64,000 nt of DNA from an uncultured virus (IMG/VR IMGVR_UViG_3300029288_000155). Lineage: Duplodnaviria; Heunggongvirae; Uroviricota; Caudoviricetes. The stretch lies in IMG/VR virus record IMGVR_UViG_3300029288_000155. The stretch is one strand, 5' to 3'. Of the stretch, positions 14,227-61,040 are shown one piece after another; the stretch's first letter is position 1; each line of letters opens with the position of its first letter. A model generated the notes under the pieces. That model was not told the DNA's origin. It saw nothing but the letters and a program-made list of their open reading frames with translations, and did no database searches. Position numbers and translations under genes: made by a program.

Positions 14227-14859
14227 ATGAGCCAAAACGTAATAAATGAAAAAATGGAAATTGCAAAAGAATGTATCTCTAAAAATATTAAAACACTGTT
14301 AGAAACATATCAGGGAGAATATAAAAATAATATAAACCTTGCAAGACAAGAAACTTATAATGCTTTCAATGAAATATGTGATTTTGAAAAAATAAATATA
14401 AGAAAAAACATATCAATGTATTCGTGTCAAATCTTGAATACCGCTATTCAAGATTTACTAAATACTTTAACCCATGATTACGTATATTTATTAAAAAATC
14501 TTGATGGAAAAATTTCACATTGCAATAGGGCAATTCTATCCCCTATTAACCAATATCAACCTGAAAACGACATAATAAAATATACTATTGATATGTATGA
14601 ATTATGTTTTAATTCCAGTGCTTATCAATATGCTATCGAAATTGGTTTTTATAAAAAAATATATGTTTATTTGAAAAATAAAGATGGACAATTTCTAAAA
14701 AATTGTGTAAAATTAAGAGATACTATTTTAAGTGAAATTAAAAAAGAAATAAGTAATGATAAATTCTATGCAAAAGATAAGTTAGAAGGACTTAAGACAG
14801 CACTCGAATTTGTTGAAAATTATGTAATATCCGAAGACTATACAATGAAATATTTTTGA
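14227..14859 (+). CDS. Hypothetical protein
   Basis: 210-aa ORF. Confidence 0.7.
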   Translation: MSQNVINEKMEIAKECISKNIKTLLETYQGEYKNNINLARQETYNAFNEICDFEKINIRKNISMYSCQILNTAIQDLLNTLTHDYVYLLKNLDGKISHCNRAILSPINQYQPENDIIKYTIDMYELCFNSSAYQYAIEIGFYKKIYVYLKNKDGQFLKNCVKLRDTILSEIKKEISNDKFYAKDKLEGLKTALEFVENYVISEDYTMKYF

Positions 14860-14965: not shown

Positions 14966-15271
14966 ATGACTACTTTATTATCAAAAACAAAAGTGCAATA
15001 TAAAATCTATAAAATATGGGATAATGAGGGGGGATCATTAGATCGATACACCGTAACTTTTAAGTATCTTTCTGGTCAAAAATATAAAAAACTTATGGCT
15101 TCTTATAATTTATTGGAATGTCTATGCTTATCTGATAATTGTAATATGCCAAACGGAATAAGCCAATTTTCATCTTGTCAAGAAGGAAATCACCTAGGAA
15201 AAGAAATTTTATTTGACAATCTTCCCGAAAATGTTAAAATAAATATCAGAAATAGAATGTTCCAGGATTAA
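14966..15271 (+). CDS. Hypothetical phage protein, paralog of 13099..13398
   Basis: Shared motifs; stop overlaps the next TCCAGGAT. Confidence 0.8.
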   Translation: MTTLLSKTKVQYKIYKIWDNEGGSLDRYTVTFKYLSGQKYKKLMASYNLLECLCLSDNCNMPNGISQFSSCQEGNHLGKEILFDNLPENVKINIRNRMFQD

Positions 15272-15291
15272 TTTTCTTGGAAATAATGTGT

Positions 15292-15580
15292 TCTTTGACA
15301 ACAAAATAATAAGTGTTTTGCAGAGATATAGTCTATTAAAGACAAACCATATAGATATATCGTATCGGTCAAACAGAATTCTAAACCCCTTACAAAGGGG
15401 GAAAAATATATTAAAAAATATAAAGATTTTTTGCAAAATTGTTATCTTTAGATGTTTTTAATATAGAAGGGTAAAGGTCGATACAAGGGTATGATATGTT
15501 AGGTTTTAATAGATAGAAAATTAGACTAAAATCCTATTATTTTGTGGAGTGGACCGATTTTTCTGATTGTTGTAAAGAAA
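15292..15580 (+). ncRNA. Candidate rod-like structured ncRNA
   Basis: ORF-free unit behind TCCAGG-N17-TAATGT. Nested stems: 15301-15311/15535-15545, 15332-15340/15505-15513, 15362-15370/15476-15484, 15407-15417/15455-15465, 15421-15427/15444-15450. Confidence 0.55.
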
Positions 15581-15782
15581 ATAGGGTAGAAGCGTTGAGC
15601 CAAAATGTAGGTAGGCATATTGAGCCTTATCCCCTTAAATAATACCAACAATTTGCAGGGGCATTAAATCACATCATTCTTTTGGAAATACTTATTATTT
15701 TATTTTAACAATTCTAGTCCAGGATTAATTTTTTGAAAATTATGTCGTGACTAACATTAAAAATAACATAAAGGAAACAAAG

Positions 15783-16833: not shown

Positions 16834-16898
16834 TAATTTTCCAGGATTGAAAAATCTATTTTTATGTTGTAACTAACAACAATATAAGGAACAAAAAA

Positions 16899-17081
16899 AT
16901 GACTATAGTAGAAAAATTGAGAGAGTTATCAAAAAAAGCTAAAAATGATAAAGTTTATCTGCCTGATACCCCTGTTGCTCAATGGCTTGATGGAACTGTA
17001 GCGAATCCAGAAAAATATATCGAATGGAAATATATCAATTTATCAGAATTATTACAGTATATTGCTGATATGGCTGAATAA
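16899..17081 (+). CDS. Hypothetical protein
   Basis: 60-aa ORF with promoter element and RBS. Confidence 0.7.
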   Translation: MTIVEKLRELSKKAKNDKVYLPDTPVAQWLDGTVANPEKYIEWKYINLSELLQYIADMAE

Positions 17082-17170
17082 TTTTCAGTTGAATAAACTT
17101 TGTCTAGTCCAGGATAAAATTCTTATCTTTTATAGTGTTAAAAAAACAACACTAAAATAAGGAACAAAAA

Positions 17171-17332
17171 ATGACAGATTCGCAAATGGAAATTTTAGAA
17201 CAGGCTTGTAAAATTCTGATGGACGAAAGCAATAAGGAAACAGACCATGACGCTACTGGAGCTATTCCAGCAGAATTGTTAAAACTATTTTGCACACAAA
17301 TATTCTATCTAAAAATGAAATATAAAAAATAA
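17171..17332 (+). CDS. Small hypothetical protein (53 aa)
   Basis: Element at 17108, AAGGA RBS. Confidence 0.65.
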   Translation: MTDSQMEILEQACKILMDESNKETDHDATGAIPAELLKLFCTQIFYLKMKYKK

Positions 17333-17598
17333 ATCTTTGTCCAGGATTAAAAAAATAGATTTTATAGAGTTAAAGCTAAAATAAAAAGATTAAAAATAAA
17401 TAAAAGAAAGTGAGTATGTACAATGATGACCCGATAAACAAAGTTAAAACTTTAATGTAAAAATTAAATTAAACTTAGGTTAAAAATGGAACAAAAATGG
17501 AAGGGATTAAACTATGAGTGAGCCACCGGGTAAAAACTAAAAAGTTTATATTTTTTAATCACTATTAAATTTATTAAATTATTAACTTTACAAAACAG

Positions 17599-17640
17599 AA
17601 AGCCATTGCCCTAAAATTAATTGGGAATGGCTTTTTTATT
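17599..17640 (+). terminator. Rho-independent terminator ending an ORF-poor transcription unit
   Basis: AAAGCCATTgCCC / GGGAATGGCTTT stem plus T run. Confidence 0.7.
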
Positions 17641-17704
17641 TTCCAGGATTAATTTTATATCTTTTATAGTATAAAAATAACACTAAAATAAAGGAACAAA
17701 AAAA

Positions 17705-18157
17705 ATGAATAGCACTTTAACAAAAAATCAGATGATAAAAAAATTCAAAACCTTTATTGAAGATGGGATTAATAAAAGTATTACTGTTGAAATAAGATAT
17801 GATGACCAATGTAATAATGGGCATAATACCTTTAGCATTACTGCGATTATGTCAGAAAATGGAAAAATAGTTTCTTGCGGATGTTTACATAATGAAATCA
17901 TTAAACATTTTCCCGAATTAAAAAAATATATTAAATGGCATTTATGTTCTTCTGATGGTCCTTTATATTATATTGAAAATACCCTATTTTGGGTAAAAGA
18001 AAAGAACTGGAAAAATGCCAAAGCTACGGCAATCTGGCCAAAAGCTACTATTAAACAATTATCATGTGAACACTTAGAATATTTACTTGAAACAAGAAAA
18101 CCCGCCTTAATGGAAAAATTCAAAAAAGATATTGAATCGCTAGGGTTTATTTATTAG
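17705..18157 (+). CDS. Hypothetical phage protein (RYDDxCxNGHNTFSIT, GCxHxEI motifs)
   Basis: 150-aa ORF, AAGGA RBS. Confidence 0.8.
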   Translation: MNSTLTKNQMIKKFKTFIEDGINKSITVEIRYDDQCNNGHNTFSITAIMSENGKIVSCGCLHNEIIKHFPELKKYIKWHLCSSDGPLYYIENTLFWVKEKNWKNAKATAIWPKATIKQLSCEHLEYLLETRKPALMEKFKKDIESLGFIY

Positions 18158-18231
18158 TATATTCCAGTTTGAAAGGACTTTGTCCAGGATCTAAATATCC
18201 TATTGTTTATAAATAAAAAAAGGATAAAAAA

Positions 18232-18357
18232 ATGGATAATCAAACAAAAGAACAAGAAAAAGAAGAAAAAATGAAAGAAAAAATTTCCCAATGGGAAACT
18301 ACCTGGAAAAATGGATGGATGAAAAAGAAACCTAAAAAATATGGAAAAAAGAAGTAA
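18232..18357 (+). CDS. Small basic hypothetical protein (41 aa)
   Basis: Element at 18183, AAGGA RBS. Confidence 0.55.
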   Translation: MDNQTKEQEKEEKMKEKISQWETTWKNGWMKKKPKKYGKKK

Positions 18358-18405
18358 AGTCCAGTCAAAGGACTTTGTCCAGGATTAAAAAAATAAAAAG
18401 TATAG

Positions 18406-18608
18406 TGTAAGAATGACAAGTGAATAGTTTTGATATTGCTAAAAACGGCTTCCAGTGTTTTATTCCTTGGTTAGGCGTAAAACACACCTATCTTAGCCAA
18501 ATAGGGGATAGCTTGTCAATAGGCTGTTGACGGGCAATAGTTAAAAAGATTTATAAGCATTGAGCTTATAAAGACTTTTAGCAAAACTATCCACCTCTTA
18601 TTCTTACA
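18406..18608 (+). ncRNA. Candidate multi-helix ncRNA with a loop-loop (kissing) interaction
   Basis: Behind TCCAGG-N17-TATAGT; no RBS/ORF; closing stems, four internal hairpins and complementary loops (see findings). Confidence 0.68.
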
Positions 18609-18675
18609 ATTTTCCAGGATTAAAAAATCCCATTTTATATTGTTAATAAAAAACAACAGTATAAAGGAACAAAAA

Positions 18676-18903
18676 ATGAGAAGTATTGCTTTACTAAAAA
18701 ATGGTCAAAAAGTTTCTTTAGTTAATTTTGAAACACGCGACGAAATTGCAACTGGAACTATTATTCAACCTGTTATTTTTCCTGATAATTATGTAAAGTA
18801 TATTGTAGAATTGGATAAAAAATTTGTATTATCCAATTTTGAAAAAAATATTTCTTATTGTCATATCGTTGCGGACCCGTGTTCTTTGGAAGTTAATGAA
18901 TAA
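18676..18903 (+). CDS. Hypothetical protein
   Basis: AAAGGA RBS before ATG 18676. Confidence 0.7.
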   Translation: MRSIALLKNGQKVSLVNFETRDEIATGTIIQPVIFPDNYVKYIVELDKKFVLSNFEKNISYCHIVADPCSLEVNE

Positions 18904-18969
18904 TTTCCAGGATATATTTTTTAGATTTTATATTGTAATTAAAAACAAATAAAATAAGGAACAAAAAAA

Positions 18970-19284
18970 ATGAAACTCTTAACAAAAACTATTGAAAAAA
19001 ATATTCCCGCTTTATATGCTCAAGACGGAAAAGGGAAAAATACTATGGCTTATGTAAAGTTTTTCTTAGATAGCTTTACTTGGTACGCAACAGAGTATTC
19101 CCAAGAAGAAAAATTATTTTTTGGAAAAGTATATTCTAGTCTTTGCCCAGAAGGGGAATTTGGGTATTTTTCCTTAGATGAGTTATCCCAAGTAAAAAAT
19201 AGATACGGATGCGGAGTTGAGAGAGATTTATACTTCAAGCCTACTTTATTAAAAGATTGTGAAAATCCCTGTATTAGCAAATAA
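18970..19284 (+). CDS. DUF2958-like protein
   Basis: PALYAQD, VKFF, TWYATE, FFG, ExGYFSLDEL, VERDLYF. Confidence 0.85.
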   Translation: MKLLTKTIEKNIPALYAQDGKGKNTMAYVKFFLDSFTWYATEYSQEEKLFFGKVYSSLCPEGEFGYFSLDELSQVKNRYGCGVERDLYFKPTLLKDCENPCISK

Positions 19285-19362
19285 TTCCAGTAGAATAGAC
19301 TTCGTCCAGGATCTAAAAAGTCTATTTTATATTGTTAATAAAAAACATTAAAGGAATAAAAA

Positions 19363-19563
19363 ATGACCCCTAAACAAATTCAAACAGCAAAAAAGAAAAT
19401 AAAAAAACTGTATGGATTAAAAAGGGTTATTACTGATAATGAGGTTATATTAGAAGTAAATAACCTTAAAAGAAAAAATCAAAATGGAAATTTAGATGAT
19501 TTCTCTCTGAATCTATTTAATGAGTTATCCACTGGACAAAATCCAATTAATCTTGAAAATTAA
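19363..19563 (+). CDS. Hypothetical protein
   Basis: 66-aa ORF with promoter element and RBS. Confidence 0.65.
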   Translation: MTPKQIQTAKKKIKKLYGLKRVITDNEVILEVNNLKRKNQNGNLDDFSLNLFNELSTGQNPINLEN

Positions 19564-19647
19564 TAGTCCAGTTTACTTTCAGTCCAGGATTAAAAAAGTA
19601 CATTTTCTATTGTGTTTTTAATTTAAATTTTTATAAGGAATTAAAAA

Positions 19648-19914
19648 ATGAGTCTTAAATTTACTTGTCCAAAATGTGGCAAAAACAGATTAGATTGTGT
19701 GGAAAATGTTACTACTGTAAATTCAGAAATTACAGATATTGATGAAGAAGGGAATTTTGAATATGGGGGAATGATGATTACTGGGGATTATAATGAAGTT
19801 TCTCATTTTGAATGTGTAGATTGTGGATTTATTCCACAAGATGATACTGATTCAGATATTAATGATAATTTAGATTTAGTAGATTGGATTAAGGAACATT
19901 GTCCTCAAGAATAA
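19648..19914 (+). CDS. Acidic zinc-ribbon protein, paralog of the C-half of 4860..5267
   Basis: CPKC and CVDC; shared terminal DLVDW...CPQE. Confidence 0.75.
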   Translation: MSLKFTCPKCGKNRLDCVENVTTVNSEITDIDEEGNFEYGGMMITGDYNEVSHFECVDCGFIPQDDTDSDINDNLDLVDWIKEHCPQE

Positions 19915-20010
19915 TTTCTTGTCCAGTTCAAAGGACTTTTTCCAGGATAAAAAAATCACATTTTTACTTGTAAATTTGATGTAAACTTTTTATTTTTTAA
20001 GGAATTTATT

Positions 20011-21521: not shown

Positions 21522-22754
21522 CTAATTAAATAAATAATTAGACAATCGAGGAAAGAACTTTATTCCTCTTGGCGGTGTCAGACCGCCAACTACGTTAGAA
21601 CTCATTTTTTCTAACGATACATTTTTAGATAAATTCCAAATATTTATACTTCCTACTCCATCTCTATCAAATTTAAAATTACAATTAGAACAAATATAAC
21701 TTCTATTTTTTGCAACATTAAGAGAATTACATTTAGGACAAGTTTTACTTGTGTAGGGTTCTGGCACAACCTCAGTTGTGCCTCCTGCATTATCAAACAT
21801 GTCTATAATATAATTTTTTAATATTTGTTCTGGAAATTGATTTCTCATTTGTGTAGTTTTTTTGTCTTTATTTATTAATTTATGAATTCCATCACATTTT
21901 CCTATAGTTATTTTAGAAATTTTGTTTTTAACACAATAATTAACAATATATCTAGAATATTTTTTTAATATATCTGTATTTTTATTTTTTATTCTCCTAT
22001 TTATTTTACGTTGAGATCGTTTAATTTTCTTATATTTTCTACTATGTTTAGTTAGTTTAGATAACTTTGATTGAGTTTTTACTTGTAATTTATTTTTTAA
22101 TCTTATATTAGACTGAATAATTTTTCCATTAAAAGTTAAGGTATTTTTACCATCAAATATAGTAGCTATTCTTTTAATTCCTAAATCTATTCCTAATTCT
22201 TTATTTTTATCACAAGGATATATTTCATGAATAGTATTAAAAACACAAGAAAGTTTCCAACCATAACTAGGTTTATAAGAAATTATACAAAAATGAGGAA
22301 TAGGTAAATCTTTATTCCATTTAAATTTTAATGGTTCTGTTTGTTTTCTAAGAGATAAAAGTAAATGCCTTTTTTTATATCTTATAGCTGATTTTTTAAA
22401 GAATATAGCACATATTTCTTTATCTTCCATAGGAGGCAAAGGAATATTAAAATCAAATTTTTTAGGATTTTTTTCATATTCTTTTAACATTTCAAAATAA
22501 GTTTTTCTAGCTTTGGTATATTGTTGAATAGAAGCTATTTTACTATCAGAATGAAGATTAGATTTTTCATATTTATAATATATTTTCTTTTGTATATCAA
22601 ATGCTGATAATGTTTTTTGTTCTTTTTCATATACTTGTATAGATAAATTTTTAGAATCATTATAGATAGAGGCAGCTTCTTTAGCTAAATTCCAAAGAAT
22701 TAGATTTTTATCTTGAATGAAGAAATTATAAGTTTTAGTTATTGTTTTTTCCAT
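21522..22754 (-). CDS. tnpB: RNA-guided endonuclease TnpB
   Basis: GIDLG (RuvC-I), EPYTSKTCPKC...CSNC zinc finger, DRDGVGSINI (RuvC-III). Confidence 0.92.
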   Translation of the reverse strand: MEKTITKTYNFFIQDKNLILWNLAKEAASIYNDSKNLSIQVYEKEQKTLSAFDIQKKIYYKYEKSNLHSDSKIASIQQYTKARKTYFEMLKEYEKNPKKFDFNIPLPPMEDKEICAIFFKKSAIRYKKRHLLLSLRKQTEPLKFKWNKDLPIPHFCIISYKPSYGWKLSCVFNTIHEIYPCDKNKELGIDLGIKRIATIFDGKNTLTFNGKIIQSNIRLKNKLQVKTQSKLSKLTKHSRKYKKIKRSQRKINRRIKNKNTDILKKYSRYIVNYCVKNKISKITIGKCDGIHKLINKDKKTTQMRNQFPEQILKNYIIDMFDNAGGTTEVVPEPYTSKTCPKCNSLNVAKNRSYICSNCNFKFDRDGVGSINIWNLSKNVSLEKMSSNVVGGLTPPRGIKFFPRLSNYLFN

Positions 22755-23134
22755 TGAGATTCTATATAATTTTTAACCGTATTTTCAGATATATTTCCTA
22801 TTGATGATACAAAAAAGCTTCTAGTCCATAAAGTTGACATTTTCAATAGTTCTGGAAATTTAGATCTAAGTTCGTTAGAACTTCTTCCTTTAATTAGTTT
22901 CATAAATTTTTGTACAGATATTTTATAATCTAAAGAAATTAATAAATGAACATGATTAGGCATAACTTCTAAAGATTTAATTGTGCAATTATTTTGATTA
23001 GATATAGAATTAATAATTTCTGTTAATTTTTCTTTAATTTCGTTAACTAGTAGATTTTTTCTATATTTAGGACACCATATTATATGATATTGTAATAAAT
23101 ATACATGTTTGTCTGTTTTTTTATAATTGTCCAT
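22739..23134 (-). CDS. tnpA: Y1 HUH transposase TnpA
   Basis: YHIIWCPKYR, HVH (HUH), KGRSS, LWTRSFF, YIESQ. Confidence 0.95.
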   Translation of the reverse strand: MDNYKKTDKHVYLLQYHIIWCPKYRKNLLVNEIKEKLTEIINSISNQNNCTIKSLEVMPNHVHLLISLDYKISVQKFMKLIKGRSSNELRSKFPELLKMSTLWTRSFFVSSIGNISENTVKNYIESQWKKQ

Positions 23135-25216: not shown

Positions 25217-25531
25217 TTTCAGAATATCTTCTTCTTTTGCATTAATTGCTTGTAATATTACATTTAGGGGTTTATTTAGAATTTTAGCTGCTAAGTATCT
25301 GTGATGTCCATCTTGTATAATAATTTTTCCATCAGAGAATAAAGAAGCATTAATAGGTTCAGATAAATCTATAGTTTTTGCCCATTCAATGGGGGAGAGT
25401 TTGCTATATTTTTGAGATGTTATCGCTCCGTTTATTTCTTCTTTATTTAATGGAATTAAATAAGAGGGATGAATTTTAGTAATTTGTTTTACTATCCCGT
25501 GATATTTTTGAGCTATTTTATACCAGTTCAT
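25199..25531 (-). CDS. MNWYK-tagged ParB/Sulfiredoxin-like domain protein
   Basis: Start reassigned to MNWYKIAQ; EPI...IIIQDGHHRYLAA. Confidence 0.8.
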   Translation of the reverse strand: MNWYKIAQKYHGIVKQITKIHPSYLIPLNKEEINGAITSQKYSKLSPIEWAKTIDLSEPINASLFSDGKIIIQDGHHRYLAAKILNKPLNVILQAINAKEEDILKLINIQ

Positions 25532-26201
25532 TATTATTTTCTCTTTTTTCATCCTTATTAATATCTACTCTTTTTTCACCCTTATTAATATCTAACTGTT
25601 CATCTTCTCCAACAATTTGTTTAGATATTGTTTTTATTACAGATGGATTAAAGATAATATAATGAACAACTCCATTTGTTCTCGGAATAATAATTCCATC
25701 GTATCCTAATTTTACCATATTTTGTAAATAATCTATTGGTTTATACCTATAATGATCTATCCATACTTGTTGGAAAGCATCATTGGGATTTTTACTATAA
25801 TTAATTATGTCATTAAATGCTTTTATGAAAGCTGGATATGGTTTTTCCCCCCAATTACTTATAGAGCTTTCATAGAATTCTTCAATTTCTATTTTTAAAA
25901 TATCTTTTTCTGAATTAATTCCCATAGACCAAAGTAACAACTGCTTTATTTCTTTTTGAGGTATTTTTCCACTTATTTTAACAACTTTATTTAAATTTAA
26001 ATCAACTGTAAAAATAGTTGAAGTTCCTTTTCCTGGTTTTAATACAGCATAAGACATAGCATCTTCGATATCATTAGTAAAATAAATTCCAGGTCCCTCC
26101 TGAGAAAAGCCCTGTCCGGCCCCTGAAATATTCCATTCTATATTCAATGTCATTGTTCCATGGTATGCCCTTATTGTTTGTGCTATTTTATACCAATTCA
26201 T
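25518..26201 (-). CDS. MNWYK-tagged ADP-ribosyltransferase-like protein
   Basis: AYHGT, GPGIYFT...AxxYA, GYDGII...IIFNP. Confidence 0.72.
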   Translation of the reverse strand: MNWYKIAQTIRAYHGTMTLNIEWNISGAGQGFSQEGPGIYFTNDIEDAMSYAVLKPGKGTSTIFTVDLNLNKVVKISGKIPQKEIKQLLLWSMGINSEKDILKIEIEEFYESSISNWGEKPYPAFIKAFNDIINYSKNPNDAFQQVWIDHYRYKPIDYLQNMVKLGYDGIIIPRTNGVVHYIIFNPSVIKTISKQIVGEDEQLDINKGEKRVDINKDEKRENNNELV

Positions 26202-26856
26202 TTATATTCTCATTAATAGGGATTAAAACCTTAGGATTTATTATTACAACTTCGGGAAATTCTCCAGCAGCGTCCATTCTATATATTACATCGTATTGTT
26301 GAGCCGATTGGTTCCAATCGTCATTTTGATGTTTTTGTGTAAAATCTTTTTCATTAATTACTTTTGCATTTTTATCTATTTTAGCTTCAATAACTTGGCT
26401 ACTTGGTTTTACTCCATCCATAGTGGAATATTCCTCAGCCTCTTCTTTTATAGATGTAAAATATAGTCCTTTAAATCTATTTCCTATACTTGGAAAGTTT
26501 TTACTATTATAATTTAAATTTAAATTATTAATATTTGCTCCTGGAGAAGAAGTTCCATGGTAAATAACAACGTCTTTTATATCTGTTGGTACGTTTTTTT
26601 CTTTTATTGTCCATTTATTTTTATTTTCTGGCGCAAAATAATTTGCTCTTAGATTTGGGATAATTTTGACTTGTTGTCCATCATTATAATATATATATCC
26701 GTCTCCTCCTTCATGGTATCCGATAGGAAGTTTTTCTTGGTAAAATAGTTCCATCATAGATTGAGGATCTGAATGAGTATGTTTTTCCCCATAAGTATTT
26801 AGCTGTCTTTCTATTTCTTGTAAATTATTTATTTGAGCTATTTTGTACCAATTCAT
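26188..26856 (-). CDS. MNWYK-tagged ADP-ribosyltransferase-like protein
   Basis: IYHGTS, GLYFTS...AEEY, YDVI...PEVVIINP (H-Y-E-like triad). Confidence 0.72.
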   Translation of the reverse strand: MNWYKIAQINNLQEIERQLNTYGEKHTHSDPQSMMELFYQEKLPIGYHEGGDGYIYYNDGQQVKIIPNLRANYFAPENKNKWTIKEKNVPTDIKDVVIYHGTSSPGANINNLNLNYNSKNFPSIGNRFKGLYFTSIKEEAEEYSTMDGVKPSSQVIEAKIDKNAKVINEKDFTQKHQNDDWNQSAQQYDVIYRMDAAGEFPEVVIINPKVLIPINENINELV

Positions 26857-27277
26857 TATTATCCCTTATATTTTGTGGAATTTGATTAATCCATTTTTCT
26901 TGGGTATAATCATAAATTTCTCCTGACGGAGATATTCCAAATGCATTATAAATATTATGTAGTTTTCTTATATAAAAACCAGAGCCTTTTCCTCTTTGTT
27001 TTGCAAAGTCTCTAGCATCGGCATATTCCTTATCTAAAACAATTTTTAAGTCATTTATCGTTTGGTCGTCTACTTTGCCTCTCCAAGCCCTTCCAGCGGC
27101 GTTCTCGCTTATAATATCGTTCCCAGCATGAGTTGTAACTCTTTGAATTAAAGTCAAAACAGAGATAGGATATTGTTTAGCTTTATAATCTCTAAAAACA
27201 TCAACAAAATCTTTAACTGTATTTATTGAAAGTTTTATATCTTTTTTATTAATTTGTGCGGCTTTATACCAATTCAT
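26825..27277 (-). CDS. MNWYK-tagged hypothetical protein
   Basis: MNWYKAAQ start. Confidence 0.75.
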   Translation of the reverse strand: MNWYKAAQINKKDIKLSINTVKDFVDVFRDYKAKQYPISVLTLIQRVTTHAGNDIISENAAGRAWRGKVDDQTINDLKIVLDKEYADARDFAKQRGKGSGFYIRKLHNIYNAFGISPSGEIYDYTQEKWINQIPQNIRDNNELVQNSSNK

Positions 27278-28199
27278 TCACATTTTCTCCTAAAATAATT
27301 TTATTTCCATATAGTTTTTTTACATCTTGTATATATTTTTGTAATGCATTGTCATTATTATTGTATTTTATATTTATTTTTGTGTATTCTGTAGAGTACC
27401 TATCTATTATCAAAGTTGAAACAACTTCTATTCTATTTTTTCCTTTATATGAAATGTTATTAATATTTCGAACATTATATGTATGTATATTATTCATATT
27501 TGATGTAAATCTATGGGATTTTGTTATAAACCTATCAAAAGATTGACGAAAATCTTCTACAGATTGACTAACTTTTAGATTTTTAGTAAAGGGGTATGAT
27601 TCAAAAAAGCTTTTAGGATCATATAGTATATTGTTTATATTTTCTACTGCAATAGATAATTCTTTAATAACAAATTTTTTAATAAAATCTTCTATATAAG
27701 GATATAGATTATTATAAACTCTTTCATCGAATCCTGGGTGTCTTTTTTTTATAATTTCTTCAACATATTTTTTTATAGCTATGTCTATATTTGGAAAATT
27801 ATTTTTTATCCATTCGGCATACCCATACAGTCCTTGAGATTTGACCACTTTATTAACAATAACTGACGGATTGATTACTAGATCTTCATCTATTAAAATA
27901 TTAGGAGAAGTATCTTCTATTTTTACAACTGCAATTACAATTTCATTATCTTTTATATCATATTTATAAGATGCTGTTTTTCCAGAAGAAATAGCTATTT
28001 GTAAATTTTCTGTTAGATAAGTTCCAGTATAACTTTCAAGACTTCTTAATTTATTTTCGTTTTCAAAATTATTATCATAAATCTTTTTTTTATAATTAAC
28101 TAATCCCTCAGAAAGAATAGAGGATAAATTATTGAGACTAGTCCCATGATATAAATATCTTACTTCTGCATATTTAATTAGTTTTTTATACCAGTTCAT
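27264..28199 (-). CDS. MNWYK-tagged ADP-ribosyltransferase-like protein
   Basis: LYHGTSLNNLSSILSEGL and GTYLT. Confidence 0.7.
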   Translation of the reverse strand: MNWYKKLIKYAEVRYLYHGTSLNNLSSILSEGLVNYKKKIYDNNFENENKLRSLESYTGTYLTENLQIAISSGKTASYKYDIKDNEIVIAVVKIEDTSPNILIDEDLVINPSVIVNKVVKSQGLYGYAEWIKNNFPNIDIAIKKYVEEIIKKRHPGFDERVYNNLYPYIEDFIKKFVIKELSIAVENINNILYDPKSFFESYPFTKNLKVSQSVEDFRQSFDRFITKSHRFTSNMNNIHTYNVRNINNISYKGKNRIEVVSTLIIDRYSTEYTKINIKYNNNDNALQKYIQDVKKLYGNKIILGENVNELV

Positions 28200-29789: not shown

Positions 29790-30728
29790 CTAATATATTA
29801 TAGTAGAGGAAGTCATCCAGTATTTTTTTATAAATTGAAAATCGTGTAAATTTATTATTTCATCTTTATTTATATCGATATTTGATTCTCCTTCAAAAAG
29901 CCAATTTTCAAAGAATAGGCATAGATCATAAATATCCACAGTTCCATCTTTATTAAAATCTGAGGGGGGATTTAATTCAACAGAGGGGATTATTTCTTCA
30001 ATCCACTCATAATAAGATGCGATATTATGATCTTCAAATACTGCATTAGTAGGGCAAAAAGAGCTATATCCGGAACTATTAACAGAGACATGAATTCCTA
30101 TTAAGTAGAAAAATCCATCTTCATATAAAAATGAGCCTCCTCCAGAGTCATATTGAGATACAGAGCATTCATTAGATGTAATATTAATGGATTCTAATTC
30201 ATCAAAATCATAATACAATGAATTTCCAAGAATTGTTCTTACTTTATTTGTACCTAGTCTAAAATTTATATTTCCTTCATTTTTCCAATAATATCCACAA
30301 AATTGTTCATTTCTATAATAATTATCTCCTCTGCCCTTTCCGAATCCAGTAATGTATATTTCTTTTTCTAAAATAGATGTGTCTAGATTTTGTTTTAAAA
30401 TAGAAAAATTTGAAAAATTAGCATTATTTAATTTAGCAATAGTTATATCAAAGATAGGGTGTTTAAATATTTGAGATATTGAATAAGGGGTAGAATTTAT
30501 TTCTACAATTGTATTTATATCTCCTCCTTGGTGAGACGTAGTTATTATATATTCTGGATGGATTACGACACAAGAAGCATTATTTCCCCATCTACCAACT
30601 ATTTTTTTAAAATAATTGTTTATAGGAATATTATTGTTTTCTAGTTCTGGATATAAGATTATTCCAAAAGATAATGAATAGAAAAAAAGAATTAAAAAAA
30701 TAGAGGAAAAGATATTTTTTATTATCAA
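29790..30728 (-). CDS. Secreted trypsin-like serine protease with C-terminal dockerin/EF-hand-like repeats
   Basis: Signal peptide; ITTSH, DI, DSGGG triad; DFNKDGTVDIYDL and DINKDEIINLHDF. Confidence 0.8.
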   Translation of the reverse strand: MIIKNIFSSIFLILFFYSLSFGIILYPELENNNIPINNYFKKIVGRWGNNASCVVIHPEYIITTSHQGGDINTIVEINSTPYSISQIFKHPIFDITIAKLNNANFSNFSILKQNLDTSILEKEIYITGFGKGRGDNYYRNEQFCGYYWKNEGNINFRLGTNKVRTILGNSLYYDFDELESINITSNECSVSQYDSGGGSFLYEDGFFYLIGIHVSVNSSGYSSFCPTNAVFEDHNIASYYEWIEEIIPSVELNPPSDFNKDGTVDIYDLCLFFENWLFEGESNIDINKDEIINLHDFQFIKKYWMTSSTIIY

Positions 30729-31933: not shown

Positions 31934-32476
31934 TTAAATATTTATATCTTCATCAATAATTTTTTCGTATTCTGGGTATTTATCTGTTAATTCTCCTAAT
32001 TTTTCAGCAAAAATTTGAGAACCTACTTGGTCTGATTTATATTTAAACATTTCTTTTAACAATGATAAATAATATTTTTTAAAACTTTCATAATCATTAA
32101 AATCTGGAGTAACAGAAGAAATTTTTTTATTGAATGTAGATATTATTTCGTTGTAACCTTTTTTATTAAAATATTTATTTACAAATTTTTGTCCTTCATT
32201 TGTAGGAGAGCCATATTCTATAGGATATCCTTTATACTTATTTTTTAAAAAATCTATTAATTGTGTTGCAACTCCTTGTCTTTTAAATTCATTTTCAGTT
32301 CTTAGCATAATAATATAGACCTGTTTTTCTATATTATTTAGAGTATAAGTAACGTGTCCCACTTCAGTATAATTGGGTAAAAAAGCGGATATTCTCCTAT
32401 ACTCGCCTATCCCCCCTCCAGAGAGACCATCTTCGAAAATTAAATTCATTTTTTGACTTTTTTTATACCAATTCAT
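31934..32476 (-). CDS. MNWYK-tagged GNAT acetyltransferase
   Basis: FKRQGVATQL motif A and TNEGQKF. Confidence 0.82.
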   Translation of the reverse strand: MNWYKKSQKMNLIFEDGLSGGGIGEYRRISAFLPNYTEVGHVTYTLNNIEKQVYIIMLRTENEFKRQGVATQLIDFLKNKYKGYPIEYGSPTNEGQKFVNKYFNKKGYNEIISTFNKKISSVTPDFNDYESFKKYYLSLLKEMFKYKSDQVGSQIFAEKLGELTDKYPEYEKIIDEDINI

Positions 32477-33264
32477 TTTTCTAATACCTTCAAAAATTGA
32501 GGAGGAATCGTATTTAAAAATATAATAGTATCATCAGACAGTCCATCTGAAGAGTAACTTTCTTCAAAATTCATATTCTCGACATCTAATAAATACGCTA
32601 ATGAATTCAATGCTTCTGAATCTTCTAATGGACTTTCTTGTTTTACGGTAGGCATATAATTAGATTGTTTCATTTTTCCAACATCTATTTCAATTACAAC
32701 ATTGTAATAATTATAGGCTGTTTCTGAATCTGGGCTTGTATAAACTCCATCTGGGTCATATTGATTAGACATCCCCCTTGTTTCCGACCTAGGAACCAGC
32801 CCTTCTTTCATAATATTTTCTATATTTTCTTCAGATGTTCCATGGTAAAGTTTAAATCCTGGATAAGCGTTATCCCAAAATTCTTGATTCATATCTACTT
32901 CTTTAACATACTGCCAAACATTATCACCTAAATCATAGAGCCATTCTTTAGAATTTTCTATACTAAAAGGATATTCTAAAAATATTAAACCAGTGTTATT
33001 TCCTTCATAATTATAAATTTTTATAGCTTTTTGACCCATAGGAAATTGGATATAATCATATTCGAACCCATTTTGCTCTATTATATACTCTACTTCTTTT
33101 ATATTCACTGCGTTTTCTATATCTTCCTTTAGATCTCCTGAAATTACAGGAAGTCTTGGATTGTCTTCTTTAGGCTGATTATAATATGGCTCTGGTTGTT
33201 GTTCTAACTTAGGATCATCGTTCCATAAATATTGTTGAGTTTGTGCTAATTTATACCAATTCAT
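32473..33264 (-). CDS. MNWYK-tagged protein with C-terminal ART-fold (Tpt1/KptA-like) domain
   Basis: Start reassigned to MNWYKLAQ at 33264; LYHGTS...IMKEGL, GVYTS, IPPQFL. Confidence 0.72.
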   Translation of the reverse strand: MNWYKLAQTQQYLWNDDPKLEQQPEPYYNQPKEDNPRLPVISGDLKEDIENAVNIKEVEYIIEQNGFEYDYIQFPMGQKAIKIYNYEGNNTGLIFLEYPFSIENSKEWLYDLGDNVWQYVKEVDMNQEFWDNAYPGFKLYHGTSEENIENIMKEGLVPRSETRGMSNQYDPDGVYTSPDSETAYNYYNVVIEIDVGKMKQSNYMPTVKQESPLEDSEALNSLAYLLDVENMNFEESYSSDGLSDDTIIFLNTIPPQFLKVLEK

Positions 33265-33265
33265 T

Positions 33266-33577
33266 TTAAATATTCCTATAAAAATAATGAATATCTTTAT
33301 TAATATCATAAATCCATACAATATTTTCTGAAATATTTTTTTCACATTCAAAATTAGAAGGATTTTGTAATATTTGTATTTTTTGTTGAGAAGGAACAAA
33401 AGGAATTATTTCTTTTATATTCCATGGTTTTACATCTTCATTATTTTCGTCAATCATTTGCGCCATTTCTGTTGCATCCCATATTCCTAGAATATCAACT
33501 GTATCTTTACAATTTCCAATATATTCATATTTTGTTTGTGCTATTTTTTTAAATTTAGTTTTTTTATACCAATTCAT
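33266..33577 (-). CDS. MNWYK-tagged hypothetical protein
   Basis: MNWYKKTKFKKIAQ start. Confidence 0.75.
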   Translation of the reverse strand: MNWYKKTKFKKIAQTKYEYIGNCKDTVDILGIWDATEMAQMIDENNEDVKPWNIKEIIPFVPSQQKIQILQNPSNFECEKNISENIVWIYDINKDIHYFYRNI

Positions 33578-36552: not shown

Positions 36553-37641
36553 TTGGAAGATCTCTCTTTTTACAAAAATCTTGTTGAAAATCATGGTTCT
36601 CCTTTAATAATATTCTATAAGAATAGACTAATTAAAAATTATAATAATTTAAAAAATGCATTACCTAATGTTGTTATTCATTATGCTATAAAAAGCAATT
36701 CTAATCCACTTATCGTAAAAACTCTTAATGATATTGGCAGTTCTTTTGATGTTGCTAGTTCTACAGAGCTTAAATATTGTTTAAAAGACAACGTTCCAAT
36801 ATCAAATATTCTTTATACTCATCCTATAAAAACAAAAGAAGAAATTCTATTTTTTAAAAATAACAAAATAAATACATTTGTAATAGATAATATTTCAGAA
36901 ATAGAAAAATTGAGTGAAAATGATAATATTTTGATTAGAATAAAGCCTGTAAATATAGATTGTAAGCATAATTTGTCTAAAAAATTTGGATGTGATATAA
37001 GTGATATTTTTAATATTTCTAATAAAATAAGACAAAATAATATGAATTTAATTGGGATATGTTTTCATGTTGGATCACAAACATTAAATCCAACTCCTTA
37101 TTTATCTACATTAAAAATACTAGTAAATATATATAAAAAACTAGAAAAAAGTGGATTTAATTTATCAATTTTAGATATTGGAGGAGGATTTCCTAATTCT
37201 TGGGATAATAAAGTAGATATATTTGAATTTTGTTCTCCTATTAGAGAATATCTTAAAAACTTTGATAAATATAAAATAATAGCAGAACCAGGAAGATTTT
37301 TAGTATCTGATACATGTGAGTCTATTTTTTCAATTATTGGAAAAAATTATAGAAATAATAAGCTTTGGTATTATGTAGATGAGGGGATTTATAATAGCTT
37401 TTCAGATATTATTTATGATAAAATCTCATATCCAATTTATGATTTATATAAGCAAGAAAAAGAAATTTGTATTTTAGCTGGTCAAACTTGCGATAGTATA
37501 GATGTTATATGTAAAAATATACAATTATCTAATAATTTAAATTATGGAGATATACTAATTTCCTCAGATATTGGAGCGTATAGTTCAGAATGTGCTTCTT
37601 CTTTTAATGGGTTTTTAAAAACGAAATATGTAGGGGTTTAA
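36553..37641 (+). CDS. Group IV (alanine-racemase fold) PLP-dependent ornithine/lysine decarboxylase
   Basis: HYAIKSN, FDVAS, KFG, FHVGSQ, DIGGG, EPGR, GQTCDSID, GAY; TTG start with AGGAG RBS. Confidence 0.92.
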   Translation: MEDLSFYKNLVENHGSPLIIFYKNRLIKNYNNLKNALPNVVIHYAIKSNSNPLIVKTLNDIGSSFDVASSTELKYCLKDNVPISNILYTHPIKTKEEILFFKNNKINTFVIDNISEIEKLSENDNILIRIKPVNIDCKHNLSKKFGCDISDIFNISNKIRQNNMNLIGICFHVGSQTLNPTPYLSTLKILVNIYKKLEKSGFNLSILDIGGGFPNSWDNKVDIFEFCSPIREYLKNFDKYKIIAEPGRFLVSDTCESIFSIIGKNYRNNKLWYYVDEGIYNSFSDIIYDKISYPIYDLYKQEKEICILAGQTCDSIDVICKNIQLSNNLNYGDILISSDIGAYSSECASSFNGFLKTKYVGV

Positions 37642-57667: not shown

Positions 57668-57979
57668 ATGGAAGATATTTCTGAATTTATATTAAAAATT
57701 AATACAGAAAACTATAGTGAATTAATTAATAATCGTATTTCTGATATATCAGAAAAATTTGATGATTTTATAGAATCTAAGAGAATTTTCTTAGAGAAAA
57801 AAATAGAAAAAAATAGCAATCCAAAATATACAGATCCTATTAATAAAAGTAATATAACATTTTATCAATATTATAAAAATCAATTAATTAAGTTAGAGAA
57901 CAATCCACAAAAATTAATAAATGAAGAAATAGAGAATTTAGAACAAATAAAACTAGAGAACACAGATAATGGCAATTGA
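57668..57979 (+). CDS. Hypothetical protein
   Basis: 103-aa ORF overlapping the next start. Confidence 0.6.
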   Translation: MEDISEFILKINTENYSELINNRISDISEKFDDFIESKRIFLEKKIEKNSNPKYTDPINKSNITFYQYYKNQLIKLENNPQKLINEEIENLEQIKLENTDNGN

Positions 57980-60900
57980 AATTAGAACATTATTACAACT
58001 GAATGACGTAAGAGATATCCTAAATGGTGAATATATTTTAATGAATAATATAGATGCATCATGGACAAAGCTTTCTAACGTAGAGGCTTTGCCTTTATTT
58101 GAAACAAGATTATGGAATGAAGGCGAATTTTGTAGAATAGAGTCTGATGACTCTTTGTATTGGAAAGTATATGAAGCAAATGAAGATACTATTGAAGATC
58201 CTAGAATATCTTCAAATTGGAACATTATATGGGAGATACTTAAAACAGATAATGAGGGGTGGGTTCCAATAGGAAGCAGTTTGACAAGATTTACAGGGGA
58301 ATTTGATTGTAATGAATTTATAATTAGTAAATTATATATAAATAATCCAACTATTGATTATGTTGGTTTTTTTGGGGCTACTTCAGATGCAAATATAAAA
58401 ATAAGATTTATAGATTCTTATATAACGGGAAAAGATAGAGTAGGAGGGATAGTTGGAGATAATGGTCATTCAAGCGGATCTGAAAGTAATATTTATGATA
58501 GTTATTTTTTAGGTGATATTCTTGGGAATCAATATGTCGGCGGAATATGTGGAAGGAATAACAGATATGGCAGAATAAGAGAAACTTTTTTTAAAGGAAC
58601 AGTTTCCTCATCTTCTATATATGTTGGAGGGTTTGTTGGATATAATTATAACGGTGGAGAGATAGAAAATTCTTACAATATAGGAGACATTATAGCATCT
58701 TCTTCTTATAGAGGTGGTTTTTGTGGAAGGCAAAGAAACGAAACAGGGGTAGAACCTCACATTATTAATTGTTTTTCTGTTCCAACAGGCGGAACTTCGT
58801 CCGGGGTAGCTGGTTTTTGCGAAATAAATAATGCCACAATTTTAAATTGTTTTTTTAATAATGATCTGGCTGAACTTACGATTGGGTCAGGAGGAACTTC
58901 TTTAACTTCTATTCAAATAAAGACATTAAATACTTTTACTGATGTAAATTGGGATTTTCCAAACATAATACTTTTAAATGAATGTTATGTTTTAAATCCA
59001 GAAGATGCAAATATAAATCATGTTTGGTATATTTTGTCCGAAAATTATCCTAAATTAATGTGGGAAAAAATTGAAATACCAAATTTGATTAATACAAATA
59101 TTTCTGAAAACATTATACAGTGTTCAGGTTTTTTAGTTGGGGATATATCATATAAATATAGTAAAAGTATAGACCAAAATAAAATTTTAGAGCAAAGTAT
59201 AGATGAAACGGAGCAATATCCTTATGGAACAGACATTGATATTAACGTATCTATGGGAAACAATATTAAAACATACTTTGCTTCTTATGAACGGAAAGGA
59301 TCCGGAGATGGAACATCAATATATAACTCATTTTTAATATCTGACTTTTGGAATATTTTTATTCCAGGTGACACTTTATTACTAGATGATGGAATATATA
59401 AAGGAAGTGAATCTATGATTACTCCTACTAATGGAGTAAAAGGGGATGAAAATTTTCCAACAGAAATTAAAGCTGTTAATGATGGAAGTGTTTTTATTAA
59501 TGGAGAAGGAGAGAATAAACCAATTTATCTAATAAATAATGATTGGTTCATTATAGAAGGAATTAACGTTTTTAATAGCAACGGATCAGTTGTAACACTA
59601 AGTAATTCTAGTAATAATAAGTTAAAAAGAATAATAGGATGGGATGCATATGATGGAAATACAAACATTTTTGGTGTGCATTCTAATAGTAACAATAATT
59701 TAATCGAAGATTGTGCTGGATTCGGAATTGCCAGAAAAATATTTAGCAATTCGCAAATGGGGAACTATTTAACATTAAGGAGATGTTTTGGAAGATGGGA
59801 GGGGAGTCACTATAATGGACCAAAAATGACCTTCACTATGGCATATAATAGCTATAATGCTATTTATGAAAATTGTATAGGAACATGGGATGCTTTTAGG
59901 ATGGATAAAAATTATTTATTAAAATGTTCAGATGAAAACACATACAGCAAATGTAATACCTTGTTTGAAAATTACGAAGTAGATCAGCCTTACGGAATTT
60001 TTTCACGAGATAGAAACGATGGAGATAAAGATGTAAATAGTTATCTTCTGGGATCTATAGCATATGTAAAAGATGGTCAAAAATGTGAGGGAATTCCATC
60101 TCTTATAAATATTTCTAGCTTAAATAAATTATATATTAAAAATTCAACCGCTTTTGCTTCAAATGAATTCATAGCTTTATATTTAAGTTCTTTTTTTAAG
60201 TGGGAAAAAAATAAAAGCTATACTCAAATAGGGGAAGAATCAAGTAGAGGAGTTATTCCAACTATTTATAATGGACATTATTATATTCCACTAACAACAG
60301 GAGTTACATCTGAAACTCAACCAATTTGGCCTGAAAATGGAGGAACTGTAGAAGATGGAGAGGTAATATGGAAAGATGCTGGAGAAATAGACTTATTAAT
60401 ACAAAACTTTAATATTTTTGGCACAAAAAATATAAGTAATTGGAATATAGAAAATTTAATAGAGGAAGGAGATATATATGCGGAAAATGAAGCTAACATA
60501 AATTTCCAATATATTGATGGAGTACAAACAAATGTCCCATTATGGCCTTGGCCTATGGATCAAAGAATTTATGATGCAATGACATTCGCGGGATATAGCA
60601 ATATAAATGGAGAAGATAAGAGAATTATTGTAACCTACGAAATAAAGTCTATATTTTTACAAAATATTCTATCCGATATTTATGAAAATATAATAAATAA
60701 TTATAATAATATTGTTTCTTATCCTTATAATAATCAAACCTACATATCTAATATAATGTTATATATGACAAATTTAACTACTTCCGATTATGATGATATT
60801 ATAAATATGTTTTTATTATTTTCTCAAACTTTTTCAGAAATGCAATCTGTATTAATCGCTTATAATTATTCTGACTATAATTTAGTTCCATCCGTTAGAG

Positions 60901-61040
60901 TTATTAATAGATATTTTAAAGAAAAAATTGATACATCTTTGACTGACTTTGTAAATTCTATTTGGATAGATGAAGTTCCTTCTAATTGGAAATATTTATG
61001 TCAATTAAGTGGAGAAGATGTTTCTGGATGGAATAGCTAA
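57969..61040 (+). CDS. Large GLUG-repeat / PASTA-like / right-handed beta-helix protein (possible virion appendage or depolymerase)
   Basis: WVPIG...FTGEFD, repeated VGG(I/F)xGxN, GSGDGTS...PGDTLLLDDGIY, Asn-rich beta-helix segments. Confidence 0.7.
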   Translation: MAIEIRTLLQLNDVRDILNGEYILMNNIDASWTKLSNVEALPLFETRLWNEGEFCRIESDDSLYWKVYEANEDTIEDPRISSNWNIIWEILKTDNEGWVPIGSSLTRFTGEFDCNEFIISKLYINNPTIDYVGFFGATSDANIKIRFIDSYITGKDRVGGIVGDNGHSSGSESNIYDSYFLGDILGNQYVGGICGRNNRYGRIRETFFKGTVSSSSIYVGGFVGYNYNGGEIENSYNIGDIIASSSYRGGFCGRQRNETGVEPHIINCFSVPTGGTSSGVAGFCEINNATILNCFFNNDLAELTIGSGGTSLTSIQIKTLNTFTDVNWDFPNIILLNECYVLNPEDANINHVWYILSENYPKLMWEKIEIPNLINTNISENIIQCSGFLVGDISYKYSKSIDQNKILEQSIDETEQYPYGTDIDINVSMGNNIKTYFASYERKGSGDGTSIYNSFLISDFWNIFIPGDTLLLDDGIYKGSESMITPTNGVKGDENFPTEIKAVNDGSVFINGEGENKPIYLINNDWFIIEGINVFNSNGSVVTLSNSSNNKLKRIIGWDAYDGNTNIFGVHSNSNNNLIEDCAGFGIARKIFSNSQMGNYLTLRRCFGRWEGSHYNGPKMTFTMAYNSYNAIYENCIGTWDAFRMDKNYLLKCSDENTYSKCNTLFENYEVDQPYGIFSRDRNDGDKDVNSYLLGSIAYVKDGQKCEGIPSLINISSLNKLYIKNSTAFASNEFIALYLSSFFKWEKNKSYTQIGEESSRGVIPTIYNGHYYIPLTTGVTSETQPIWPENGGTVEDGEVIWKDAGEIDLLIQNFNIFGTKNISNWNIENLIEEGDIYAENEANINFQYIDGVQTNVPLWPWPMDQRIYDAMTFAGYSNINGEDKRIIVTYEIKSIFLQNILSDIYENIINNYNNIVSYPYNNQTYISNIMLYMTNLTTSDYDDIINMFLLFSQTFSEMQSVLIAYNYSDYNLVPSVRVINRYFKEKIDTSLTDFVNSIWIDEVPSNWKYLCQLSGEDVSGWNS

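What the first reader, a model, noticed from the sequence alone, without database searches (positions are those of the whole stretch)
18406..18608. Promoter-driven 200-nt structured RNA with a 9-bp kissing-loop
Seen: this cassette has no RBS or ORF. Closing stems are TGTAAGAAT 18406/ATTCTTACA 18600 and ATAGTTTT..GCTAAAA 18424-18444/TTTTAGCAAAACTAT 18576-18590. Hairpin A is GTGTTTTA 18455/TAAAACAC 18478, with loop segment TTGGTTAGG (18467-18475). Hairpin B is CCTAT 18487/ATAGG 18501, whose loop CTTAGCCAA is complementary to the A loop (two G-U). There is also an 11-bp G-U-rich hairpin at 18511-18535 and a 9-bp hairpin at 18550-18572. G-U pairs favour the + strand RNA. Adjacent loop-loop paired hairpins recall the SRP Alu-domain topology, but I see no SRP S-domain motif. 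I do not recognise the family.
Basis: partly seen in the sequence, partly recalled or inferred. Interest (0 to 1): 0.8.

Follow-up and report, generated by a model that had tools for sequence, protein, structure and literature searches.

The report
Phage RNA mirroring early ribosome sites
An uncultured, very AT-rich large phage carries, among dozens of tiny promoter-gene units, one unit that holds a folded 200-base RNA instead of a protein gene; one of its loops is the mirror image of the phage's own early ribosome-binding sites, so it may damp their translation, but this is untested.

Summary
The element is real. 18406-18608 folds far better than chance (z -5.7), matches no Rfam family, has no credible ORF, and fills one of 36 TCCAGGAT promoter-like cassettes of an early-type phage gene array. 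Only one full homolog was found (L030): 6 of 203 changes against 36 of 159 at four-fold sites of neighbouring genes, with no compensatory pair. The kiss is therefore complementarity only (240 of 200,000 random loop pairs reach 9 bp).

New here: bases 18458-18468 are the exact antisense of the array's commonest ribosome-binding site (8 of 37 array starts; 0 of 77 starts elsewhere; 12 of 20,000 shuffles). Folding predicts that the kiss frees the anti-Shine-Dalgarno core, which otherwise pairs inside loop A. Best reading: a trans-acting anti-RBS RNA gated by the kiss (about 0.35). One reader stem is wrong, and a near-equal fold has SRP-Alu-like topology without the UGU motif or S domain. Transcript ends, expression and function are untested. 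The scan noted anti-SD-loop early RNAs before on other, non-homologous phage DNA.

The parts
18378..18385 (+). TCCAGGAT box, the upstream element of the cassette promoter-like motif
   Evidence: 39 copies on + in 1-20700, 0 on + in the rest of the window, 2 on -
18401..18408 (+). -10-like hexamer TATAGT plus GT, 15 nt after the box; a sigma70-type start would be about 18413 (inferred)
   Evidence: T at hexamer position 1 in 33 of 36 cassettes, T at position 6 in 29 of 36, following G in 21 of 36; the same promoter through 18413 heads a protein-coding cassette in L030
18406..18432 (+). 5' strand of the long imperfect closing helix P1 (11 + 3 + 9 bp); the first 7 nt may exist only in read-through transcripts
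   Evidence: P 0.92-0.99; three of the six L030 changes lie on this strand; the overall fold stays as stable (-66.9 vs -65.8)
18434..18451 (+). linker in fold I; in fold II the 5' strands of helices P2a (with 18533-39) and P2b (with 18521-28)
   Evidence: suboptimal fold at -65.4; P 0.32/0.20 here, 0.50/0.41 in L030
18455..18485 (+). hairpin A: 9 bp, 13-nt loop; an internal 3-bp hairpin 18465-67/18473-75 competes with the kiss
   Evidence: P 0.97 and 0.96; invariant in L030
18458..18468 (+). 11-nt antisense of the array's commonest RBS (AAGGAATAAAA); 18464-68 is the anti-SD toehold
   Evidence: 8 of 37 array starts, 12 of 20,000 shuffles, no other place in 410 array tiles; 0 of 77 starts outside the array; 4 such RBS in L030
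18467..18475 (+). kissing segment of loop A
   Evidence: 9-bp complement of loop B, duplex -8.9 kcal/mol
18487..18505 (+). hairpin B: 5 bp, 9-nt loop 18492-500, the kissing partner
   Evidence: P 0.61 free, 0.96 when the kiss bases are held open
18511..18535 (+). hairpin C (11 bp, 3 G-U), exclusive with P2a/P2b
   Evidence: P 0.72; A18530G in L030 adds a fourth G-U
18544..18579 (+). hairpin D (9 bp, 5-nt loop) with a 5-bp basal extension
   Evidence: P 0.99 and 0.50; invariant in L030
18582..18608 (+). 3' strand of closing helix P1; followed by only four U and the next cassette's box at 18613-20; no intrinsic terminator

Best explanation
The cassette is a stand-alone non-coding RNA gene of the phage's early-type cassette array (shown by context and folding; transcription inferred). 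Its most likely job is to damp translation of the array's own genes in trans. The loop A/loop B kiss captures the AGG at 18473-75, which would otherwise fold back on the CCU of loop A. This leaves the anti-Shine-Dalgarno core 18464-68 exposed. That core nucleates on AAGGA ribosome-binding sites and extends by invading the weak A-U upper half of stem A to 11-12 bp on the commonest early RBS, blocking 30S loading, as C-rich-loop sRNAs such as RsaE do. The long closing helix would give the RNA stability and define its ends, by a start near 18406-18413 or by cleavage out of read-through transcripts. Shown: sequence, complementarities, predicted folds, conservation in one sister. Inferred: expression, the kiss, the gating, target binding, any effect on translation. 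Odds that it is a functional RNA at all: about 0.85; that this is its job: about 0.35.
For: No Rfam match; z -5.7; own promoter-like motif in a 36-cassette array; 6 of 203 changes (2 of 172 in the core 18423-18594) against 36 of 159 four-fold sites in 8 shared genes, Fisher p 7e-9. The antisense 11-mer hits 8 of 37 array starts; 12 of 20,000 dinucleotide shuffles do as well at k=11 and k=10, 163 of 20,000 at k=9; 0 of 77 starts outside the array carry it; L030 keeps the segment and has 4 such RBS. The target is a better partner (11 Watson-Crick pairs) than the hairpin's own 3' arm (one mismatch, one G-U). Opening the toehold costs 5.9 kcal/mol without the kiss and 0.0 with it; freeing the kiss bases costs 6.5 against a 9-bp duplex of -8.9. 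Precedent for an unpaired pyrimidine motif blocking initiation: RsaE (PMC2790875, abstract).
Against: Net binding is marginal: duplex -11.6 minus an opening cost of 6.9-8.8 gives about -3 to -5 kcal/mol. The match was found after the fact, after I had seen an earlier scan note with this idea; a U-rich arm next to CCU is not rare in an AT-rich hairpin, and hairpin A could be a relic RBS-sequestering hairpin. Most array RBS are other variants that pair more weakly (-3.5 to -14.2 kcal/mol with the 22-nt arm). There is no covariation for any helix or for the kiss (0 compensatory pairs). Low divergence could be mosaic exchange: two nearby genes differ as little (2 of 162 and 14 of 453 nt), although both immediate neighbours differ by 12-14%. 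No terminator defines a discrete transcript. The anti-RBS segment explains only about 50 of the 203 nt; P1, C/P2 and D are unexplained.
Confidence: 0.35

Rival explanations
1. Cis element of the read-through early mRNA: a stabiliser, processing site or attenuator between cassettes, a large relative of PeSL stem-loops. The complete closing helix of about 23 bp forms only in RNA started upstream (17643, 18184) and would be a double-strand nuclease substrate or a barrier.
For: If the start is about 18413, seven perfect outer pairs exist only in read-through RNA, and they are unlikely by chance (7e-5 at array composition). No + strand terminator was found in 17800-18608. PeSL stem-loops can overlap the -10 box and terminate upstream transcription (PMC2839356 section 13).
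Against: A simple hairpin would do this job; four invariant inner hairpins with complementary loops would not be needed. The cassette has its own promoter-like motif and the next gene has another. The closing helix is followed by only four U.
Confidence: 0.2
2. Structure-based ligand: a compact RNA that binds a protein or the ribosome. In fold II it has the topology of a prokaryotic SRP Alu domain (5'/3' helix, two three-way junctions, kissing helices 3 and 4, capped helix 5), so it could be a tRNA-like decoy for a defence nuclease or a factor-site blocker.
For: Fold II is within 0.4 kcal/mol of the MFE and rises in L030. The B. subtilis Alu domain has this helix arrangement, folds without protein and resembles tRNA (PMC4231752). 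The whole core, not just hairpin A, is conserved.
Against: No UGU between hairpins A and B (a single A at 18486); the helix-2 equivalent is 15 bp and the B-to-P2 linker 15 nt; no S domain and no SRP hit at E up to 10; ARAGORN finds no tRNA; fold II is the minority fold (P 0.1-0.5).
Confidence: 0.2
4. DNA-level element: a small non-autonomous mobile element with TGT...ACA terminal inverted repeats, or a quasi-palindrome extended by template switching.
For: The ends are a 9-11-bp inverted repeat beginning TGT and ending ACA; the array is visibly shuffled between the window and L030.
Against: No target duplication; one copy only in 64 kb and in L030; no listed joint skips it in 4 runs; the left 'end' is promoter sequence that also heads a protein gene in L030; the changes keep G-U pairs on one strand.
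Confidence: 0.07

Closest known systems
Anti-SD loop sRNAs: S. aureus RsaE and related Rsa RNAs (PMC2790875, abstract seen); P1/P7 c4 RNA (PMC12197685, passage seen)
   Same: A pyrimidine motif in or next to a loop is complementary to ribosome-binding sites; c4 is a phage RNA that blocks an RBS.
   Different: The motif is UCCUU plus a U-rich arm, not UCCC; it matches a whole class of the phage's own cassette RBS; exposure is predicted to depend on a kissing loop; no sequence or Rfam relation; function untested.
PeSL promoter-stem-loop cassettes of T4-type phages RB49/phi1 (PMC2839356, abstract and section 13 read)
   Same: Repeated promoter cassettes before tiny ORFans in a shuffled region; stem-loops may overlap the -10 box.
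   Different: The upstream box is TCCAGGAT, not the sigma70 -35; this cassette has no SD or ORF; the structure is a 200-nt multibranch fold, not one terminator hairpin.
Prokaryotic SRP RNA Alu domain, B. subtilis (PMC4231752, parts 1-4 of 6 read)
   Same: Fold II has the same order of helices: 5'/3' helix, two three-way junctions, two adjacent hairpins with complementary loops.
   Different: No UGU in the linker, no S domain, much longer helices 1 and 2, a 7-9-bp rather than 5-bp loop helix, no Rfam SRP hit; fold II is not the dominant predicted fold.
Phage non-coding RNAs of unknown function: phage K lnc/sncRNAs (PMC9241854, passages seen); GOLLD/ROOL (listing only)
   Same: Non-coding RNAs from phage early promoters or terminal-repeat gene arrays.
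   Different: No homology; much smaller than GOLLD/ROOL; not beside tRNA genes (none in the window).
phi29 pRNA (search listing only; loop-loop mechanism recalled)
   Same: Three-way junction bearing two complementary loops, similar size.
   Different: No Rfam hit; unrelated phage type; multimerisation not tested.

Membership tests
Any Rfam 15 family | score at or above the gathering threshold | tested here: not met
   0 matches in 64 kb; 4 chance matches at E 1.5-9.7 in 18200-18800, none covering the fold
SRP RNA / Alu domain | S domain attached through helix 5 | tested here: not met
   helix D ends in a 5-nt loop; no SRP hit at E up to 10
SRP RNA / Alu domain | UGU in the linker between helices 3 and 4 | tested here: not met
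   the linker is the single base A18486; feature as defined in PMC4231752
SRP RNA / Alu domain | helix 1 plus two three-way junctions | tested here: inconclusive
   present only in fold II, P 0.2-0.5
SRP RNA / Alu domain | loop 3-loop 4 pseudoknot | tested here: inconclusive
   9-bp complementarity beyond chance, no covariation
SRP RNA / Alu domain | minor-saddle contact of helices 3 and 5; ribosome binding | not testable with these tools
   needs a 3D structure or a binding assay
C-rich-loop anti-SD sRNAs (RsaE type) | unpaired UCCC motif | tested here: not met
   the motif is UCCUU, unpaired only when the kiss bases are held open
C-rich-loop anti-SD sRNAs (RsaE type) | complementarity to target ribosome-binding sites | tested here: met
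   8 of 37 array starts, 12 of 20,000 shuffles
C-rich-loop anti-SD sRNAs (RsaE type) | discrete stable RNA that blocks 30S loading | not testable with these tools
   needs Northern/RACE and toeprinting
PeSL cassette | repeated promoter cassettes in a shuffled ORFan region | tested here: met
   36 cassettes; gains and losses between the window and L030
PeSL cassette | sigma70 consensus -35/-10 | tested here: not met
   upstream box TCCAGGAT; the sigma70 scan does not call this promoter
PeSL cassette | ends in an SD and start codon; terminator stem-loop | tested here: not met
   no SD-led ORF; no terminator call
MITE / non-autonomous IS | terminal inverted repeats | tested here: met
   11-bp helix 18406-16/18598-608
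MITE / non-autonomous IS | target duplication, several copies or an empty site | tested here: not met
   only 64 kb of the genome was available
tRNA / tmRNA | ARAGORN detection | tested here: not met
   0 genes in the window
phi29-type pRNA | intermolecular loop pairing into rings on the prohead | not testable with these tools
   no Rfam hit; needs native gels

The most novel reading that the evidence does not exclude
The RNA is a free-standing, S-domain-less Alu-like fold that a lytic phage uses directly on translation: the kissing loops lock a tRNA-like shape and at the same time display an anti-SD strand, so one RNA both finds early (and host) AAGGA initiation sites and stalls or excludes ribosomes there, acting as an RNA-only timer for the end of the early phase.
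Probability: 0.07. Interest if true: 0.9.

Novelty: new variant of a known kind. Interest (0 to 1): 0.55.

Why it matters
How large lytic phages with dozens of strong, identical early promoters switch those genes off is mostly explained by proteins (my knowledge). A phage RNA that targets the shared ribosome-binding site of a whole gene class, with a kissing loop as the gate, would be an RNA route to that switch and is easy to test in vitro. If the Alu-like fold is the true one, it would be a natural Alu-type domain outside SRP. At present it is an undescribed structured RNA known from two haplotypes of one phage lineage, so its reach is narrow unless the anti-SD early RNAs that this scan noted in other phages prove to be one convergent class.

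Tried and rejected
Homolog hunting mostly failed. blastn of the element against phage and plasmid collections gave only short chance pieces (16 and 8 records, none covering 80%); 6.6 kb of the array found nothing in phages. Viral-contig patterns: kiss loops 23 hits, hairpin B 4 hits, junction motifs 1 hit, hairpin A 0, promoter patterns 0 and 0; all hits were rejected by inspection or by the RNA model. Metagenome scan: 2 hits, L030 real and L029 chance. Genome scan: 1 hit, L032, the same chance stretch as L029. These scans need exact matches, so homologs with changed loops are not excluded. Neighbour proteins led to three unrelated viral loci without the RNA. Two window proteins have no close relatives (best non-self 36% and 63% identity). 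No whole genome is held, and L030's record is not searchable further. No RNA holder was listed among public runs; this says nothing on expression. In one search, one groundwater-run contig piece covers 18484-18556 with 11 other letters, a hint of a more distant homolog whose letters were not shown (153 difference rows were cut). No paralog was found in the window. A possible 5'-end pairing 18414-21/18511-18 was dropped because C18417A breaks it in L030. A 71-codon minus-strand frame from a CTG at 18454 was dropped because the codon changes in L030 (my reading). The three-word motif search of the Fremin 2023 catalogue (PMC10690425) found nothing in 7 supplementary files; files 1 and 2, probably the alignments, could not be searched. 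Term searches of two 2026 preprints on non-coding element mining showed nothing like it in the main text; their supplements were not seen.

Full report
Setting. The window is AT-rich (GC 0.21-0.30 per 2 kb) and carries mostly small unknown ORFs, with methyltransferases, ADP-ribosyltransferase-like genes, an IS200/IS605 TnpA-TnpB pair and a weak head-decoration hit; this reads as part of a large phage (inference; no whole genome is held). One public run labelled landfill metagenome holds 0.98 of the words of 17000-20000 and may be its source. Bases 1-20.6 kb are an array of one-gene cassettes. TCCAGGAT occurs 39 times on + there, never on + elsewhere and twice on -. After dropping 3 sites inside ORFs, the 36 left show a TAnnnT-like hexamer 15 nt downstream (T 33/36, T 29/36), usually followed by GT, and mostly an AAGG-type SD 36-57 nt from the box. 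I read this as a phage-specific early-type promoter; that is inferred from pattern and position. The finding fills one such cassette (18379-18613) exactly.

Observation. The fold is strong: -65.8 kcal/mol, z -5.67, best of 160 window tiles. The two loops are complementary over 9 bp; 240 of 200,000 random loop pairs of this composition reach that. Rfam gives nothing at gathering level or as a credible weak hit, and ARAGORN finds no tRNA. A second fold, 0.4 kcal/mol above the MFE, replaces hairpin C by two nested helices. The minus strand folds as well, so the strand call rests on the promoter and on G-U-keeping changes.

Ends. The -10-like hexamer ends at 18406, so a sigma70-type start would fall near 18413. 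L030 has another cassette with the same promoter through the 18413 position, followed by a short hairpin, an SD and an 83-codon ORF; the first bases of the 'closing stem' are thus promoter sequence. Yet the seven extra pairs are unlikely by chance (7e-5). Either the start is at 18406-07, or the full helix forms in read-through RNA from the cassettes at 17643 and 18184, with no terminator in between, or template switching extended the repeat. No terminator follows the element. The ends are the main open point.

Homologs. One full homolog was found: L030, a sister phage contig 91% identical over 2.2 kb. Contigs in three of four laid runs (groundwater X2, landfill X3, X4) span the element and show five of the same six changes in the listed rows; X5 covers it in pieces (153 rows cut). 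They are the L030 type, not independent evidence. The RNA differs at 6 of 203 sites, 2 of 172 in the core, against 36 of 159 four-fold sites in 8 shared genes; the two flanking genes differ by 15 of 126 and 32 of 228 nt, but two other nearby genes differ as little as the RNA, so mosaic exchange is not excluded. Of the six changes, two turn A-U into G-U, one breaks a G-C, and three lie in unpaired positions where they add pairs in the L030 fold. No pair changes on both sides; covariation is untested, not failed. Window and L030 differ by whole cassettes, as in PeSL shuffling (PMC2839356).

Anti-RBS segment. A scan for antisense matches showed that 18458-18468 is the exact complement of AAGGAATAAAA at eight SD positions of the array. 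That is 8 of 37 SD-led starts; 12 of 20,000 shuffled RNAs match as many at k=11, 12 at k=10 and 163 at k=9; of 410 array tiles only the four that overlap the element contain it. None of 77 ORF starts outside the array has the 11-mer, though that list includes doubtful ORFs and 21 of them have AAGGA. L030 keeps the segment and has four such sites. In isolation loop A hides the anti-SD by an internal hairpin (P 0.96). With the kiss bases held open, 18464-68 is fully unpaired; the opening cost falls from 5.9 to 0.0 kcal/mol. The kiss itself (-8.9 for 9 bp, -6.3 for 7 bp, as free duplexes) competes with a cost of 6.5, and net target binding is only about -3 to -5 kcal/mol. The model is coherent but thermodynamically marginal, and I looked for this feature after reading a scan note with the same idea.

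Mechanism. Best reading (0.35): a trans-acting RNA that occludes the shared RBS of early cassettes, gated by the kiss, working like RsaE-type sRNAs (PMC2790875, abstract) without being one. Rivals: a cis processing or attenuation element (0.2); a protein- or ribosome-binding fold with Alu-like topology (0.2); a multimerising scaffold (0.08); a DNA element (0.07); the remainder is other or no function. Against SRP membership: the UGU linker, called the most conserved part of the Alu core (PMC4231752), and the S domain are absent.

Novelty. Not in Rfam 15. Literature searches listed no description of such an RNA; (phage, small RNA, anti-Shine-Dalgarno, early genes, translation) returned 0 papers. 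Most of these were seen as listings only, and the alignment supplements of the Fremin catalogue and the supplements of two preprints could not be seen. The scan has no note on this sequence or on look-alikes, but it has several on other phages' early RNAs with anti-SD loops, one also with a kissing loop; these are unchecked leads, not support. Verdict: a real, undescribed phage structured RNA with a testable mechanism and a thin comparative base; interest 0.55.

Noticed in passing
window 98-20600 (+): Array of at least 36 cassettes sharing a TCCAGGAT-N15-TAnnnT-GT motif unlike the sigma70 -35; several have extra TCCAG units about 20 nt upstream and a GGAC-N3-GTCC palindrome. The cognate sigma factor or activator was not identified.
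   Followed up: partly
L030 3266-3462 (-): A second ORF-less cassette, absent from the window: about 146 nt with four hairpins, z -3.26, 0 of 200 shuffles; a candidate further small RNA.
   Followed up: partly
window 15262-15718 (+): ORF-less or degenerate cassette of 457 nt, weakly structured (z -2.15, 1 of 100 shuffles).
   Followed up: partly
window 17341-17642 (+): Cassette without an SD-led ORF, not structured (z 0.03), 30 of 296 aligned sites different in L030, ending in a terminator-like hairpin.
   Followed up: partly
window 16841-17108 vs L030 7007-7234 (-): L030 joins the 16841 promoter directly to the 17171 ORF, a clean one-cassette deletion, and carries seven cassettes missing from the window: recombination between cassette motifs.
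   Followed up: no
window 21522-23134 (-): IS200/IS605-type TnpA plus TnpB (Cas12f1-like) just past the array; the RNA model shows no relation to its ends.
   Followed up: no
window 25518-28199 and 32473-33399 (-): Cluster of ORFs with ART-PolyVal, PARP-like and Tpt1-like hits (most below the curated cut-off), possible phage ADP-ribosyltransferases.
   Followed up: no
window 29790-30728, 36553-37641, 57969-61040: A dockerin-domain protein, a pyridoxal-dependent (ornithine-type) decarboxylase and a 1023-aa GLUG-motif protein; possible hints to the host.
   Followed up: no
window 18589-18600 (+): A second pyrimidine-rich, 16S-tail-like stretch (likeness recalled, not tested) in the 3' strand of the closing helix; it is paired and changes in L030.
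   Followed up: partly
window tiles at 11606, 14406, 16406: Other 203-nt tiles with z -4.7 to -5.4; those at 11606 and 16406 include long terminator-like hairpins, the one at 14406 lies inside an ORF and was not examined.
   Followed up: no
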